Part shown: piece by piece, positions 2,143 to 22,716 of the stretch
Position numbering within the stretch: the stretch's first letter is position 1
Layout of the letters: every line of letters begins with the position of its first letter
Source: an uncultured bacterium
Lineage (GTDB): Bacteria > Babelota > Babeliae > Babelales > Babelaceae
Assembly: GCA_963713855.1 (NCBI GenBank)
Contig: OY970209.1
Location: 1-64,000, forward strand
Length of the DNA stretch: 64,000 nucleotides
Direction of reading: 5' to 3'
Notes under the pieces: model-generated
Seen by the model: the letters and a program-made list of their open reading frames with translations, nothing else
Databases searched by the model: none
What the model was told of the DNA's origin: nothing
Made by a program: the position numbers and the translations under genes

Positions 2143-4683
2143 GTGGAAACAAAGAAATGGATAACGGTTGTGGGAGCCCGTGAGCACAACCTGAAAAACA
2201 TAACAGTTCAGATTCCAAAGGAGTCATTGACGGTCATTACTGGCCCATCTGGCTCAGGAAAGAGTACTCTTGCTCTTGATGTACTGTATGCGGAGGGTCA
2301 GCGCCGTTATATTGAGTCACTTTCCTCATATGCGCGTCAGTTTTTAGGAATTCCTCCAAAACCTCATGTAGAGCGTATAGAGGGACTATGCCCAGCAATT
2401 GCTATCGACCAGAAGACGGTGGGTGCAAACCCACGTTCTACAGTAGGAACAATAACGGAAATCTATGATTATTTACGAGTTCTTTTTGCTCGCGTTGGTA
2501 TGCTCCATTGCCCCTCATGCCATAAGCCTGTGCATGCCGAATCTCCAGAAACCATCGCCCAAAAGCTCCAGGCCCTCTACACAGGGCATACTATTACAAT
2601 CGGAGCACCCGTCGCCAACGAAAAGAAGGGTGAATTTACCAATCAGCTTGAAAAATTTTTTTTAAACGGGTTTTACCGTTTTCTTATCGACGGAAAAATA
2701 TATAGCTTCAGGTCCTTAAACGCTCTTAAAGAGTTAAGCCTTAAAAAAACGCACAAGCACACTATTGACATCATTATCGATACACTTGAGGTATCGCCTT
2801 CAGAAGCTGCCCGCATGCATGAGGGCGTCGAGGTCGCATTTAACTTGACACAGGGACTTTGTAAAATTATCGCCGGCAATGACCAGCATACATACTCATC
2901 GAAAAGAATGTGCATTGATTGTACACGTTCATTACCTGAGATTGAGCCACGGCTTTTTTCTTTTAATTCACCCCTTGGTGCTTGCAAAAAGTGTCACGGG
3001 CTCGGCATTATATTACTAGCACCATCAATGCCGTGGTATGCAAAACTAGAAGAGCATCGAGAACAGTTTGAAACGCTATGCACCGAGTGTAAAGGACAGC
3101 GTCTAAATCCATTAGCATTGGCAGTAACGGTTGGTGGATTTAATATCCACGAGATAAGCGCATTTTCAATCAAAAAGGCGCTCGAATTTTTCAAAAACCT
3201 AACTCTTGACGCAACACAACAAGCCATTGCAGAAAGACTTCTTAACGAGATCATTAACCGCTACACATTCTTATCTGACGTAGGCCTAGGCTATTTAACA
3301 CTAACTCGAACGGCTAGAACTCTTTCGGGGGGCGAAAGCCAGCGCATAAGGCTTGCTACGCAAATAGGATCAGCCTTAAGCGGTGTACTCTACGTTCTTG
3401 ACGAACCGAGCATCGGTCTTCATCAAAGAGATAATGATCGGCTTATAGGAACGCTTAAAAAACTGCGCGATCAGGGAAATACTGTGCTCGTTGTTGAGCA
3501 CGATTTTGATACCATGACTAACGCAGACTACATTATTGACATGGGACCTGCTGCAGGTGTGCACGGAGGCACCATAGTTGCAACAGGAAATCCAGATGAT
3601 CTTTGCAAAAAAGAACACTCGCTGACAGGAGCATATCTTGCTGGCAGAAAAAATATTATACGAAAACAGCCCACTCGAAAACCTGAGCGTTTTTTGACCA
3701 TCCATGGAGCTAGCACCCATAATCTTAAAAATATCACTACAGCCTTCCCGCTTCAGGTATTTTGTTGTGTTTCGGGTGTTTCAGGATCAGGCAAAAGCAC
3801 CCTTGTTATGGAAGAGCTTGTACCTACTTTAGAATCAGCATTAAAACATAAGCTTCAGTCTAGCTCAAGTGGTCGTATACAGGGCTTTGAGTCCATAGAA
3901 ACGCAGGTAGTTATCGACCAGACACCTATCGGACGAACACCGCGATCTAATCCTGCGACATACCTAGGTATCTTTGATGATATACGTAAACTGTTTTCAG
4001 GACTTCCTGAAAGTAATGCACGGGGCTATAGCCCGGGAAGATTTAGCTTTAACGTTGCTGAAGGACGTTGTGCGCACTGTCAAGGAGAAGGGGTATTAAC
4101 AATATCAATGCATTTTCTACCAGATGTCACCGTCACGTGTAATCATTGCAAGGGCCTAAGGTACAATCCCCAAACACTCGAGATTTTTTACAAAGGCAAG
4201 CACATTGCCCATATACTCGACATGACTGCCGAAGAAGCAGCTATCTTTTTTGAGCACCACCCTTCGCTTTCAAAAAGGCTCAATCTTATGTGCAGCGTCG
4301 GACTCGACTATATCAAACTGGGACAGCCATCAACAACGCTTTCAGGCGGAGAAGCGCAGCGCATAAAACTCGTTAATGAATTAGCAAAGCGTGGAAGCAA
4401 TACACTTTACATTCTCGATGAGCCAACAACAGGCCTTCACGCACAAGACATCGAAAAACTGCTTATTGTGCTTAACAGGCTCGTTGATAAGGGAAACTCG
4501 GTACTTGTCATAGAGCATAACATCGATGTACTCAAAGTTGCCGATTACCTTATTGAGCTCGGGCCAGAAGGCGGGGACGAAGGCGGCCATATCATCGCAC
4601 AAGGCACACCGGAAGATGTTGCAAAGTCGCCCAAAAGCGTCACAGCTCCTTATTTACAAAAAGCACTTAGCGTCACTAAATAG
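2143..4683 (+). CDS. uvrA: Excinuclease ABC subunit A
   Basis: GAREHNLKN, two Walker A motifs (GPSGSGKS, GVSGSGKS), LSGGE signatures, zinc-finger CxxC pairs. Confidence 0.98.
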   Translation: METKKWITVVGAREHNLKNITVQIPKESLTVITGPSGSGKSTLALDVLYAEGQRRYIESLSSYARQFLGIPPKPHVERIEGLCPAIAIDQKTVGANPRSTVGTITEIYDYLRVLFARVGMLHCPSCHKPVHAESPETIAQKLQALYTGHTITIGAPVANEKKGEFTNQLEKFFLNGFYRFLIDGKIYSFRSLNALKELSLKKTHKHTIDIIIDTLEVSPSEAARMHEGVEVAFNLTQGLCKIIAGNDQHTYSSKRMCIDCTRSLPEIEPRLFSFNSPLGACKKCHGLGIILLAPSMPWYAKLEEHREQFETLCTECKGQRLNPLALAVTVGGFNIHEISAFSIKKALEFFKNLTLDATQQAIAERLLNEIINRYTFLSDVGLGYLTLTRTARTLSGGESQRIRLATQIGSALSGVLYVLDEPSIGLHQRDNDRLIGTLKKLRDQGNTVLVVEHDFDTMTNADYIIDMGPAAGVHGGTIVATGNPDDLCKKEHSLTGAYLAGRKNIIRKQPTRKPERFLTIHGASTHNLKNITTAFPLQVFCCVSGVSGSGKSTLVMEELVPTLESALKHKLQSSSSGRIQGFESIETQVVIDQTPIGRTPRSNPATYLGIFDDIRKLFSGLPESNARGYSPGRFSFNVAEGRCAHCQGEGVLTISMHFLPDVTVTCNHCKGLRYNPQTLEIFYKGKHIAHILDMTAEEAAIFFEHHPSLSKRLNLMCSVGLDYIKLGQPSTTLSGGEAQRIKLVNELAKRGSNTLYILDEPTTGLHAQDIEKLLIVLNRLVDKGNSVLVIEHNIDVLKVADYLIELGPEGGDEGGHIIAQGTPEDVAKSPKSVTAPYLQKALSVTK

Positions 4684-4981
4684 TAGGTCAAAAAGAAATA
4701 GGCGCCTACGCGGCGCGCGGCAGGACATTGTCCTGCACCTGTTGCTTGTTTTGCTTCTTACATACTTATAGTGTATGAGATAAACCGGGAAACCCGGTCT
4801 ATCTCATTAGGCACATTTACCAGAAAGGGAACTCCCTTTCTGGTAAAAACCATAAATAAAAGTTTAAGAAATGGGTCAAGGGTCATAAAGCCTGAGTCCA
4901 GGCTTATGAGCCCTTTCATAGAGTCAATACTATGACTCTTATGATGCCGCGTAGGCGTATTCTTCCCTGATTTTTATTTGG
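4676..4981 (+). repeat. Multi-hairpin non-coding repeat element with terminal inverted repeats (MITE/palindromic-element-like), copy 1
   Basis: Perfect 12-bp TIR core CGCCTACGCGGC 4703-4714 / GCCGCGTAGGCG 4946-4957; five internal hairpins; homologous to the reverse complement of ~22307-22651. Confidence 0.9.
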
Positions 4982-5082
4982 CGACAGAAACCTAGCGTGC
5001 GTAAATTAGTAATAATTGCCAATATCGTTATTTGTCGTTAGACTACCAAAAACATATCGCAGCCCTCTAACGTACGGTACTT

Positions 5083-7656
5083 ATGAATGACGAGTCCCAT
5101 TCCTTAACGCCGCTTATGCGGCAGTATCATGAAGTAAAAGGCCGTTTTCCCGATGCACTCGTATTGTTCCAGGTGGGAGATTTTTATGAGCTCTTCCACG
5201 AAGACGCTCATAAAGCCTCAGCATTTTTGGGAATTACGCTCACAAAAAGGAGCAATAGCGGCGATCAAGCAGTGCCTTTGTGCGGTGTTCCGGTGCATGC
5301 TGTAGATCACTATCTGGTAAAACTTGTACGCGGAGGTTTTCGCGTCGTTCTTTGTGACCAGCTTACAAAGCCGCAGCTTGGAAAACTTGTAGAACGCGGA
5401 GTAAAGCAGGTATTAACGCCCGGTACGTTAACCGATTTTAAAATGCTTGAAGAGAAATCTGCCTCCTATATAGCATCGATTTTTCCCATAAGCGATCGGT
5501 ACGGGGTACTCTTTGCAGAACTTTTAGCAGGCCAAATTTTTATAACCGTACTTGAATCGCACGACTCGCGCCTATTGGAGGCCGAGCTTGCACGCTTTTT
5601 GCCTCAAGAAATTCTTCTTCCTTCCACCAAACTAGGAACAGCGCTCAATGCTATCTTACAAAAACTTGGGCATGTTACCACCATGCTTAGTCAAACAGCT
5701 CAATATTCAGCCGACAACGAAGAGCTTACAAGCTGGCTTACGAGCAGTTTTTCAGAAGGAATTGTTACTTTTATAGAGCACTCCCAAGCAGCTAAAGGAG
5801 CTCTTGCCCTTATGCATGGGTACTTTAAAACTAACTGCCCACTCGCAATTGGCCAGTGTAAGCAGATGGTCATGTATAGCCCAGAAGATTTTCTTATACT
5901 CGATACGGCAACACAGCGAAACTTAGAACTTGTCAAAAACATCCACGATGAACAAAGCCAACAAACACTTTTTGGAGTCATGGATCGCGCTACAACGGCG
6001 ATGGGTTCGCGCCAAATAAAAAAATGGCTCCTTCGACCCTTGGTGAAACAAGAACTTATCGAACAACGCTTAGACGCAGTTGAAGCGCTCAATGGTGCTA
6101 TTACTACACGGCATTCTTTACAAGAAGAACTAAAAGGGATAGGTGACCTTGAACGCGTTGTAGGCCGGATAGCATTGTCACGTGCCCTACTGTATGATTA
6201 CTTAGGGCTCATGAGAGCGTTAGTACACCTACCTAAGCTTTCTCAGCTTTTAGAGCCGCTTTTGGGGGTACAAATAGTACAAGCAATTAAAGCTCGACTA
6301 GGTGATTTTACTCAAGTTTCCGAGCTACTTAATAAGTCACTCAATGACGATAGTAGCCTTCCCTGGCTTATAAAGTTGGGGTACAATGCGGAGCTTGACC
6401 GTCTTCGAACACTCCACGAAGAAGGGGCACAGGCTGTACTTGAGCTTGAAAAAAAGGAACAGGAGCGTACGGGAATAGCTTCGCTTAAAATTCGCTTTAG
6501 TAAGCCCCATGGTTATGGCATTGAAATTACAAAAACACACCTTCACTTAGTGCCTAATGACTATATACGTATACAAACACTCGCCCAGCGAGAACGCTTT
6601 ACCTATCAGGCTCTTAAAGACCTTGAATACGATATTCAGCGCGCAAAATCAAGCATTGATGAGGTCGAAGAAGAAGTTTTTAAAAGCATCTGTCAGAGTG
6701 TTTCTCAAGAGATACCAGCTCTTAAAAAAGCCACACAGGGGCTTTCTCATTTAGATGCTATTATAGGGCTTTCAGAGCTTTCTTATGAACGTGCTTATAC
6801 ACGACCTACATTCAATAAGCAGAGAAACATTCTTATACAAGATGGCAGACATCCAGTCGTTGATAGCCAGTTACATGAGGCTTTTATTCCTAATGATACT
6901 GTGTTGACGGACCAAGAGTGCTTATGGGTCATTACTGGGCCAAACATGGGCGGTAAATCGACATTCTTGCGCCAGAACGCCCTTCTTATTATTATGGCTC
7001 AAATGGGCTCCTTCGTTCCTGCAAAATCAGCCTGCTTACCGCTTGTCGATCGCATTTTTACCCGCATAGGAGCCGCCGATAATGTTGCAGCGGGTGAAAG
7101 TACCTTTTTTGTCGAGATGAAGGAAACTGCACTCATTTGTACAAAAGCAACGTCCCAGAGCCTCGTCATACTCGATGAAGTGGGAAGAGGCACAAGCACC
7201 TACGATGGTCTTGCACTTGCACAAGCAATCGTTGAATACCTTTACACACACGTACAAGCAAGGTGCTTGTTTGCAACACATTACCATGAGCTTACAAGCT
7301 TAGTCGAAACACATCCGGGCATAGCAACGTACTATGCAGCAAGCAAAGAAACAAAAGAGGGTGTCCTTCTTCTGCATAAAATATTAAAGGGTAAAGCAGA
7401 TGGCAGTTTTGGATTAGAGGTTGCAAAGCGAGCTGGTGTTCCTACGACGATTTTAGAAAGAGCACAGGAAATACTTGTACACCTAAAACAAGAAGCTAAT
7501 GAAAAAGAGCTAAATGTACAACCAGCAATCTCTTTATCACAGCCACAAGAAAAAATGAAAGAGGAGCTTTCTGCACTCAATATGGACACGCTTAGCCCTC
7601 GAGCAGCGTGGGACTTTCTCTGCCACCTAAAAAATGAGTATGACTTCAAGCAATAA
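5083..7656 (+). CDS. mutS: DNA mismatch repair protein MutS
   Basis: TPLMRQY, FQVGDFYELF, TGPNMGGKSTFLRQ, DEVGRGTST, FATHYHELT. Confidence 0.98.
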   Translation: MNDESHSLTPLMRQYHEVKGRFPDALVLFQVGDFYELFHEDAHKASAFLGITLTKRSNSGDQAVPLCGVPVHAVDHYLVKLVRGGFRVVLCDQLTKPQLGKLVERGVKQVLTPGTLTDFKMLEEKSASYIASIFPISDRYGVLFAELLAGQIFITVLESHDSRLLEAELARFLPQEILLPSTKLGTALNAILQKLGHVTTMLSQTAQYSADNEELTSWLTSSFSEGIVTFIEHSQAAKGALALMHGYFKTNCPLAIGQCKQMVMYSPEDFLILDTATQRNLELVKNIHDEQSQQTLFGVMDRATTAMGSRQIKKWLLRPLVKQELIEQRLDAVEALNGAITTRHSLQEELKGIGDLERVVGRIALSRALLYDYLGLMRALVHLPKLSQLLEPLLGVQIVQAIKARLGDFTQVSELLNKSLNDDSSLPWLIKLGYNAELDRLRTLHEEGAQAVLELEKKEQERTGIASLKIRFSKPHGYGIEITKTHLHLVPNDYIRIQTLAQRERFTYQALKDLEYDIQRAKSSIDEVEEEVFKSICQSVSQEIPALKKATQGLSHLDAIIGLSELSYERAYTRPTFNKQRNILIQDGRHPVVDSQLHEAFIPNDTVLTDQECLWVITGPNMGGKSTFLRQNALLIIMAQMGSFVPAKSACLPLVDRIFTRIGAADNVAAGESTFFVEMKETALICTKATSQSLVILDEVGRGTSTYDGLALAQAIVEYLYTHVQARCLFATHYHELTSLVETHPGIATYYAASKETKEGVLLLHKILKGKADGSFGLEVAKRAGVPTTILERAQEILVHLKQEANEKELNVQPAISLSQPQEKMKEELSALNMDTLSPRAAWDFLCHLKNEYDFKQ

Positions 7657-21850: not shown

Positions 21851-22306
21851 ATGACAAACGAAGGGCCTTTTGATTATTATCAATTTGTTGTTTCATCCGA
21901 GCTTCTCAGGCTTTTAGAATGGCTTATCGACCACGAATATGAAGGGCTCAAAAAGCTCATCAAACGCGCTGTCGATCAGGGTTTAATAAAAAAACCAAAC
22001 ATGCCAAAGCAACAAGCACATGAACCCGAAGAAATACAACAGAATATTGTGGAGTTTTTTACGCTCCTCGATATCTTATTACAAGAAACTATTCAAGAAC
22101 AGACAACCAAGGAATTCTTAGAACGTTCACTTATTCCCGCAATAAACTGCTTTGACAGAACTATGTATGACTCAACAACTATGGCTACAAGTATTGCAAA
22201 AGCTGCAGCAGTAGTAGAAAAATCTAAAGGAGAGACGCCAAAAGAAGTTCTGTGTAAAGAACTTCTAAAGCGATGGAAGCCCCATAAAAAAATGCAAGCA
22301 CATTAG
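21851..22306 (+). CDS. Hypothetical protein
   Basis: AAGGAG RBS, 151-aa ORF downstream of htpX. Confidence 0.8.
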   Translation: MTNEGPFDYYQFVVSSELLRLLEWLIDHEYEGLKKLIKRAVDQGLIKKPNMPKQQAHEPEEIQQNIVEFFTLLDILLQETIQEQTTKEFLERSLIPAINCFDRTMYDSTTMATSIAKAAAVVEKSKGETPKEVLCKELLKRWKPHKKMQAH

Positions 22307-22651
22307 AGTAACGCCTAAGCGGCATCATAAGAGTCATAGTATTGACTCTATGAAAGGGCTCATAAGCCTGAACTCAGGTTTTATGACCCTTGACCCATTG
22401 CTTTATGCAGTTTAATTTTACCAGAAGGGATACCCCTTCTGGTAAATATGCCTAATGAGATAGACCGGTAAAACCCCGTCTATCTCATTTATACAATGAG
22501 CATATAAGGTACGCAACGCTGCAACAGGTGCACGGAACCATACCATGCCAAGTAAGGCATGATTGGTCCGCAACAGCCCTCGCAGAGGGCGATTGGTGGA
22601 GGGTCCTGCCGCGCCGCGTAGGCGCTTATTTCTCTTTGATTTACTATTTAG
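22307..22651 (-). repeat. Multi-hairpin non-coding repeat element, copy 2 (inverted relative to copy 1, with an extra hairpin module)
   Basis: TIR core CGCCTAAGCGGC 22312-22323 / GCCGCGTAGGCG 22613-22624; the reverse complement aligns with 4676-4960. Confidence 0.9.
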
Positions 22652-22716
22652 ACACACTATCTAGAAATAATTTGCATGATTGCATCTTTTAGGGAGAGTT
22701 TTAAACTCTCCTCTTT

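What the first reader, a model, noticed from the sequence alone, without database searches (positions are those of the whole stretch)
4676..4981. Apparently novel modular multi-hairpin element with TIRs (copy 1), overlapping the uvrA stop codon
Seen: a 12-bp perfect TIR core extends into an imperfect ~35-40 bp TIR (CTAAATAGTAGGTCAAAAAGAAATA... vs ...TATTCTTCCCTGATTTTTATTTGG). It encloses five hairpins: 4720-4736, 4775-4807, 4816-4847 (perfect 15-bp arms), 4878-4915 and 4916-4944. A second copy lies inverted at ~22307-22651. Shared sequence begins at CTAAATAGTA, which contains the last codon and TAG of uvrA. No transposase and no clear target-site duplication in the window. Inference: a non-autonomous mobile palindromic element (MITE/REPIN/Rickettsia-palindromic-element-like) or a multicopy structured RNA closed by the TIR stem.
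Basis: partly seen in the sequence, partly recalled or inferred. Interest (0 to 1): 0.8.

Follow-up and report, generated by a model that had tools for sequence, protein, structure and literature searches.

The report
Flipping hairpin cassette in miniature transposon
This stretch is one of 21 copies of a gene-less miniature jumping element whose outer ends match an IS5-type transposon and whose hairpin-packed middle points along the direction of chromosome replication in 19 of 21 copies, likely because the middle flips after insertion until it faces that way.

Summary
It is a composite. The outer 34-37 bp arms are decayed left and right ends of an IS5-family transposon: one matches the left end of an IS5 in the congeneric genome G001, the other its right end with the last transposase codons; many copies end in TA within CTAG. 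No such transposase was found in this genome (18, 89, 117). Between the 12-bp inverted cores lies a mosaic, REPIN-like hairpin cassette whose end unit also occurs without IS5 ends in relatives and in Candidatus Binatus (26, 52, 109). The cassette is reversed relative to the IS ends in 8 of 21 copies, not once (115), and follows the replication fork in 19 of 21, while the IS ends do not (13 of 21). This copy is one of the two exceptions. The scan noted the end unit before (e1-9897035) and fork-polarised repeats in other genomes; the IS5 origin and the flipping were not in those notes.

The parts
4666..4992 (.). Whole composite element, copy 1 (327 bp): IS5-derived ends around a hairpin cassette
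   Evidence: one of 21 copies
4666..4702 (-). 'L' arm = decayed right end of an IS5-family element, including the last ~8 transposase codons; read on + it supplies the last five codons and the TAG of uvrA
   Evidence: L consensus vs right end of the G001 IS5: 23 of 36 anchored matches, 0 of 100000 shuffles; family C-terminus pattern
4703..4714 (+). 12-bp core, left copy: boundary of the invertible cassette
4717..4741 (+). 'A' end unit: hairpin 4720-4736 plus tail; with the core it forms the unit shared with other lineages
4775..4807 (.). Internal hairpin C
4816..4847 (.). Internal hairpin D (perfect 15-bp arms)
4874..4944 (-). 'B' end in its F+G variant (two hairpins, 4878-4915 and 4916-4944); other copies carry a simpler B hairpin
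4946..4957 (-). 12-bp core, right copy
4958..4992 (-). 'R' arm = decayed left end of an IS5-family element
   Evidence: R consensus vs left end of the G001 IS5: score 49, 0 of 1000 shuffles; this copy 18 of 24
4993..4994 (+). TA, probable target duplication (left partner at 4664-4665 altered)
2143..4683 (+). uvrA; its last residues are encoded by the element
5083..7656 (+). mutS, downstream neighbour
22277..22661 (-). Copy 2: L arm 22625-22661 with TA at 22662-22663; cores 22613-22624 and 22312-22323; R arm decayed under the 3' end of the 151-aa ORF 21851-22306 (left limit approximate)
22527..22612 (-). A unit of copy 2 with extra hairpins inserted in its loop (shared by 4 of 20 full copies; limits approximate)

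Best explanation
The element is a 21-copy miniature transposon with IS5-like outer ends and a hairpin cassette inside that lies along the replication direction in 19 of 21 copies; it likely spread by a now-lost IS5 transposase, and its cassette likely flipped afterwards between its 12-bp inverted cores in a fork-directed way. Steps: (1) shown: ends match an IS5 (NF033580) of the congener G001; (2) inferred: a pre-existing hairpin doublet replaced the transposase gene between those ends in this lineage; (3) inferred: an IS5 transposase in trans inserted the composite at TA in CTAG-like sites, often at gene 3' ends, without regard to the fork; (4) shown: the cassette sits either way round between the arms, reversed in 7 of 8 copies whose arms face against the fork and in 1 of 13 whose arms face with it; (5) inferred: the cassette strand folds when exposed as the lagging-strand template, and template switching or nicking at the paired cores inverts one orientation more often than the other, so copies ratchet into the state where the core-hairpin-A strand is the lagging-strand template. 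Confidence by layer: composite IS5 MITE about 0.9; fork polarity real about 0.85; directional flipping as its cause about 0.55.
For: 21 dispersed copies, 82-88% identical over their main blocks. Exact match of the arm consensus at the end of an 809-bp IS5 in G001; L arm 14 of 20 beyond the TIR vs the IS right end (23 of 100000 shuffles) but 6 of 20 vs the left end. Related IS5 copies in relatives end in the same TAGG-type boundary. TAG at both boundaries in 10 of 20 full copies. Orthologous junctions in G001 lack the element at the 2 sites where gene order and orientation are kept. oriC (DnaA-box array) at 395.6-395.9 kb coincides with the skew minimum; 16S and 30 of 38 tRNAs co-oriented. Cassette with the fork 19 of 21, p=2e-4; 15 of 16 at convergent or divergent sites where transcription is symmetric, p=5e-4; arms 13 of 21, p=0.38; arm direction vs flip state Fisher p=5e-4. 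Reversed copies are not one clade: p-AU 1.5e-6 on the cassette, 0.047 on the arms. Same polarity elsewhere: G001 30 of 44, p=0.023; metagenome end units 38 of 48 de-duplicated sites, p=6e-5, unchanged by gene direction. Unpaired cassette spacer 1 is closer to consensus (0.91) than gene-free arms (0.83, 0.78), so the cassette changed or homogenised after the arms decayed.
Against: No flip was observed directly and no close strain gave an empty or oppositely oriented site. This very copy and the copy at 160 kb are against the fork. In G001 the bias is weak and not significant where local skew is strong (16 of 25, p=0.23). One metagenome sub-type showed no bias (3 of 7). If the two switch points were chosen freely, 19 of 21 arises in 2.5% of random sets; the argument rests on oriC being fixed independently. 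The copy at 1197 kb is within 0.5 kb of the skew maximum (18 of 20 without it). dnaA lies at 1294 kb, far from the inferred oriC. Mosaic modules make the cassette tree unreliable, and the arm tree is nearly unresolved. No enzyme for the cassette was found. 5 of 20 R arms and 6 of 21 L arms lack a clear boundary or are largely overwritten.
Confidence: 0.6

Rival explanations
1. Same composite, but flips and insertions are random and selection removes or disfavours copies whose cassette opposes the fork, because the cassette has a polar effect (an internal transcript colliding head-on, a fork barrier, or a restart/priming site useful only on the lagging-strand template).
For: Gives the same 19 of 21 pattern. 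The cassette is more conserved than the arms and stems carry 10 two-sided changes vs 13 one-sided in C and D. Selection against strand-switching inversions is a general theme (PMC11040001, passages).
Against: No sigma-70-like promoter inside the element. Protein genes here show almost no strand bias (52%), so such selection is weak in this genome. Unit polarity in single, non-invertible Binatus copies fits an insertion- or fork-level process as well.
Confidence: 0.22
2. Empty IS5 MITEs spread first; the cassette then entered each one separately by its own single-strand, fork-polarised mechanism (IS200/IS605- or RAYT-like), so no flipping is needed.
For: The unit lives without IS5 ends in G001 and other lineages and is polarised there. 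IS200/IS605 elements are biased along the fork because they use the lagging-strand template (PMC3971601, PMC6006769, passages). Cassette and arm trees are not congruent.
Against: No empty arm pair and no cassette without arms in G000 (only 3 weak stray hits, E>=0.41). No Y1 or Y2 transposase in G000; Y1 genes of relatives have their own ends and no flanking units in the 11 loci viewed.
Confidence: 0.1
3. A multicopy structured non-coding RNA closed by the core stem.
For: Very stable fold; the top strand folds better as RNA in 16 of 20 copies; 6 of 82 pairs with a two-sided change.
Against: Covariation term unfavourable (+1.21); stems are near-perfect palindromes that fold on both strands; 0 G-U and 3 A-C mismatches in C and D on the top strand; internal modules differ between copies and completely between genomes; no Rfam family at cut-off; orientation ignores flanking transcription.
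Confidence: 0.05
4. An ordinary decayed MITE; the fork bias is chance or inherited through local transposition of related copies.
For: Ten copies cluster at 406-578 kb; best-split probability 0.025; weak signal in G001.
Against: Arms at the same loci show no bias, and neighbours differ in flip state; the same sign recurs in G001 and in metagenome sites.
Confidence: 0.05

Closest known systems
Bacterial MITEs derived from insertion sequences; here IS5 family (NCBIfam NF033580; two-ORF organisation as described for the IS427 group in PMC9241763, passage)
   Same: Short, gene-less, IS-matching terminal repeats, TA/CTAG boundaries, dispersed copies near gene ends (MITE definition in PMC3184786, passage).
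   Different: The interior is not a deleted remnant of the IS but a foreign hairpin doublet that is reversible between its own cores and oriented by the fork, whereas the IS ends are not.
REPINs / BIMEs with RAYT (TnpA-REP) (PMC6006769 section 12; PMC3733652 passages and section 7)
   Same: Two hairpin units in inverted orientation, mosaic modules, preference for convergent junctions; REP dimers sitting inside a longer palindrome have a precedent in Anabaena variabilis (PMC3733652 section 7).
   Different: No GTAG/GTGG foot 5' of the hairpin; no RAYT found; the outer palindrome is identified here as IS5 ends; fork polarity and flipping were not found described for REPINs in my searches.
IS200/IS605 elements and their non-autonomous derivatives
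   Same: Orientation along the fork, with hairpins on the lagging-strand template (PMC3971601, PMC6006769, passages).
   Different: Ends are inverted, not subterminal direct-type LE/RE; no TnpA in the genome; polarity is decoupled from the transposon ends.
Invertible DNA switches (phase-variation invertons; recalled)
   Same: A segment bounded by short inverted repeats found in both orientations.
   Different: Twenty-one dispersed copies, no adjacent invertase, no promoter or gene inside, and the state tracks the replichore rather than varying freely.

Membership tests
IS5-derived MITE | Terminal repeats matching the ends of a known IS family | tested here: met
IS5-derived MITE | Short, no transposase inside, several dispersed copies | tested here: met
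   about 290-390 bp, 21 copies
IS5-derived MITE | Target-site duplication | tested here: inconclusive
   TAG at both boundaries in 10 of 20 copies, TA on both sides of the G001 IS; no alignable empty site
IS5-derived MITE | Cognate transposase available in trans | tested here: not met
   none in G000 (91% complete); the matching IS in G001 has an interrupted frame. Lowers present-day mobility, not origin
IS5-derived MITE | Mobilisation by that transposase | not testable with these tools
   needs a transposition assay
REP/REPIN-RAYT system | Two hairpin units in inverted orientation, extragenic, multicopy | tested here: met
REP/REPIN-RAYT system | GT[AG]G tetranucleotide at the 5' foot of the hairpin | tested here: not met
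   GTAG occurs only 3' of the hairpin within the core and is not kept in most G001 cores; definition from PMC6006769 section 12
REP/REPIN-RAYT system | A Y1 HUH gene flanked by the same repeats | tested here: not met
   0 Y1 hits in G000; 12 of 41 family genomes have hits; no flanking units in the 11 Y1 loci viewed
IS200/IS605-type single-strand elements | Orientation bias along the replication fork | tested here: met
IS200/IS605-type single-strand elements | TnpA with matching subterminal hairpin ends | tested here: not met
Rfam RNA family | Score at or above the family's gathering cut-off | tested here: not met
   window: only a tRNA; 6 loci at E<=1: two sub-threshold hits
Recombinase-driven invertible switch | Dedicated invertase beside or acting on the repeats | tested here: inconclusive
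   one tyrosine recombinase in G000, at 409 kb; serine recombinases not searched by me
Rickettsia palindromic elements (recalled) | In-frame insertion inside protein-coding genes | tested here: not met
   0 of 21 copies spanned by an ORF; only terminal codons overlap

The most novel reading that the evidence does not exclude
A dispersed DNA cassette that reads the direction of the replication fork and re-orients itself in place: after a transposon drops it either way round, fork-linked inversion between 12-bp cores turns it so that a widespread core-plus-hairpin unit always lies on the lagging-strand template. The unit would be the signal of an unrecognised, fork-coupled class of bacterial repeats spanning distant phyla, and this genome a natural experiment that separates insertion direction from final direction.
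Probability: 0.45. Interest if true: 0.78.

Novelty: new variant of a known kind. Interest (0 to 1): 0.58.

Why it matters
Orientation bias of mobile DNA is usually read as a property of insertion. Here insertion direction (recorded by the IS5 arms) and final direction (the cassette) are separable, and only the cassette follows the fork. That points to a post-insertion, strand-specific process acting on hairpin repeats and makes it directly testable with a 330-bp construct. It also shows how one repeat family can capture another's ends to spread, and how such elements rewrite the last codons of housekeeping genes such as uvrA.

Tried and rejected
Sequencing runs: none was listed, so no reads were laid. 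Exact cassette pattern in metagenomes: 0. Pattern scans of genome contigs (15 hits) and viral contigs (12 hits) gave only core-like chance matches without the hairpin; further viral scans 0, 0 and 0 confirmed. Plasmid and phage BLAST: only short weak hits. Mobiliser for the cassette: no Y1, Y2 (74) or IS5/DDE_Tnp_1 (18, 117) hit in G000; one GIY-YIG hit in a 434-aa frame and one tyrosine recombinase; no recurrent neighbour gene among 292 ORFs around 120 metagenome sites; HUH motif scan gave no candidate in G000. I did not scan the whole proteome against Pfam. Elements as rearrangement hot spots: 3 of 13 direct junctions conserved in G001, not clearly below other long junctions (80 of 183), rejected. 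Clustering near oriC: 14 of 21, p=0.19, rejected. G032 as an independent polarity test: its 11 hits mostly lack the core and belong to another repeat; 6 of 11 positive, not counted. The end-unit pattern was found in 0 of 25 genomes of the family of one Binatus-labelled genome, so it is not general there. The anchored L-versus-IS test was off by one base (14 of 36) and was redone. Spacer 2 was mis-cut in several copies, so only spacer 1 is used and the paired test printed there is not relied on. No dif site could be picked out. An atlas search of the 151-aa neighbour gave nothing usable. The host's phylum (Dependentiae) is taken from earlier scan notes and was not established by my own calls.

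Full report
Observation. The described anatomy is in the sequence: a perfect 12-bp inverted core (4703-4714 / 4946-4957), five hairpins at the stated places, a fold about ten standard deviations below shuffles, an inverted second copy, and the uvrA stop inside the element. The window is the first 64 kb of a single 1.52-Mb contig, 41% GC, 91% complete. Earlier scan notes call the host Dependentiae; I did not establish that myself.

Copy number and context. BLAST and a profile search give 21 loci, one of them partial (578 kb), and no further ones. None is spanned by an ORF; 11 of 21 lie between convergent genes against 258 of 1377 junctions genome-wide. Of 27 gene 3' ends facing a copy, 18 stop within 40 bp of the core; uvrA and the gene at 319 kb both end in the same element-encoded residues, unlike their G001 orthologues. 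At the 2 sites where G001 keeps both neighbours in the same arrangement, it has no element, and only 1 of 34 orthologous flanking genes has an element at the same end in both genomes.

Outer layer. Beyond each core lies one of two arms, L (37 bp) or R (34 bp), ending in TAG in 15 of 21 and 13 of 20 cases. A pattern for their shared tip, run over 239 genomes of the order, hit 4 genomes; the one exact hit outside G000 is the left end of an 809-bp element in G001 with TA on both sides, encoding an IS5-family transposase (DUF4096 plus DDE; NF033580 149 bits, cut-off 110). R matches its left end (0 of 1000 shuffles). L matches its right end at 23 of 36 anchored positions (0 of 100000), including 14 of 20 beyond the TIR against 6 of 20 for the left end; read on the transposase strand, intact L arms give a short peptide with the family's C-terminal W-L pattern, which 108 of 120 homologues carry. 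Ten other IS5 copies from relatives show the same kind of TAGG boundary. G000 itself gave no transposase hit. So the outer layer is a decayed IS5 MITE.

Inner layer. Between the cores sit an A unit, spacer, hairpins C and D, spacer and a B unit. Modules vary independently: 4 of 20 full copies have extra hairpins in the A loop, 2 carry hairpin G at the A side, and the B end comes in three forms. Stems are near-perfect palindromes with 10 two-sided and 13 one-sided changes in C and D and no G-U on the top strand. The core-plus-hairpin unit is older than the capture: a 16-nt core pattern hits 19 of 261 genomes of the order, 45 times in G001, with controls near zero; there it bounds 300-600-bp doublets with different interiors, and none of G001's carries IS5 ends. 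A metagenome scan stopped at 120 loci; most are single units in 54-71% GC contigs, and the two flanking proteins looked up cluster with Candidatus Binatus proteins.

Orientation. The skew minimum (395.6 kb) coincides with an array of DnaA boxes and an AT-rich tract; the 16S gene and 30 of 38 tRNAs run with the inferred forks; dnaA is elsewhere. Read A to B, the cassette runs with the fork in 19 of 21 copies (p=2e-4), and in 15 of 16 at convergent or divergent sites; at the 5 tandem sites it follows transcription in only 2. The arms run with the fork in 13 of 21 (p=0.38). The cassette is reversed between the arms in 7 of 20 full copies plus the partial one: 7 of 8 where the arms oppose the fork, 1 of 13 where they do not (Fisher p=5e-4). 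Reversed copies need 6 changes on the cassette tree and are rejected as one clade (p-AU 1.5e-6; arms 0.047), with the caveat that mosaic modules distort that tree. The flagged copy is the one unreversed copy facing against the fork. Outside support: G001 30 of 44 (p=0.023; 16 of 25 where local skew is strong, p=0.23); metagenome units 38 of 48 sites, after dropping loci with under 1.5 kb of flank, the one doublet and 13 duplicates from 120 (intercept 0.042 +/- 0.009 with gene direction fitted; one sub-type 3 of 7).

Mechanism. Shown: IS5-matching ends, copy spread, two cassette states, fork polarity of the cassette only. Inferred: capture of the doublet between IS5 ends; spread by a lost transposase; later inversion at the cores. 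The strand reading core-hairpin-A is the G-rich strand, which is the lagging-strand template and transiently single-stranded (general knowledge). I favour directional inversion at the fork (template switching or nicking of the folded strand), because a double-strand transposase acting on the arms cannot easily read the interior, protein genes here show little strand bias (52%), and neither empty arms nor arm-less cassettes exist. Selection on a polar function and separate polar insertion remain open.

Known systems. Papers seen: PMC6006769 (passages, section 12), PMC3733652 (passages, section 7), PMC3971601, PMC9241763, PMC3184786 and PMC11040001 (passages); no supplements were read, and those of the first two may list related repeats. 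PMC3971601 reports fork bias for IS200-type families and little for most IS5 subgroups. PMC3733652 notes REP dimers inside longer palindromes. The element passes as an IS5-derived MITE in origin, fails the GTAG-foot and RAYT tests for REPINs, and matches no Rfam family. Searches (listings only) showed no description of this family or of a fork-oriented invertible MITE interior; the library is incomplete and ISfinder was not searched.

Verdict. A new variant of a known kind: ordinary in its outer layer, unusual in the decoupling of cassette and transposon direction. Interest 0.58.

Noticed in passing
genome G000 C1:395570-395900 (outside the window): Probable oriC: tandem DnaA-box arrays on both sides of a central tract plus an AT-rich region upstream of nusA, about 900 kb from dnaA (1294 kb); the skew minimum of G001 falls at the orthologous locus.
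   Followed up: partly
L393:1504-2312 (G001:C2:1252025-1252833): IS5-family element with TA flanks and an interrupted transposase frame; closest relative found of the element's arms.
   Followed up: yes
L164:12546-12682 and L169:4098-4171 (G064): Tandem arrays of the core at 25-bp and 31-bp spacing at element ends; G001 has 17-bp tandem cores.
   Followed up: no
L026:1501-2000 (G001:C2:439084): A G001 cassette is cut off after its first hairpins by what looks like an IS3-type transposase sequence (recognised by eye).
   Followed up: no
L353:9790-10000, L354, L356-L362 (G032): A different mosaic hairpin repeat family, about nine copies, that embeds an A-like hairpin without the core.
   Followed up: partly
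L308, L312, L309, L313, L310, L314, L316: A compact IS200-type element with similar hairpin ends shared by G001, G008 and G224.
   Followed up: partly
genome G000, mainly 0.78-1.43 Mb: Large family of coding repeats with about 144-bp period (abundant 16-mers), probably repeat-protein paralogues.
   Followed up: no
   Followed up: no
window 22693-22711: Separate 9-bp perfect hairpin just after the maf-like gene's stop and outside copy 2.
   Followed up: no
L051:660-1430 (G001:C1): Two small adjacent ORFs beside mutS that look like a toxin-antitoxin pair (by eye).
   Followed up: no
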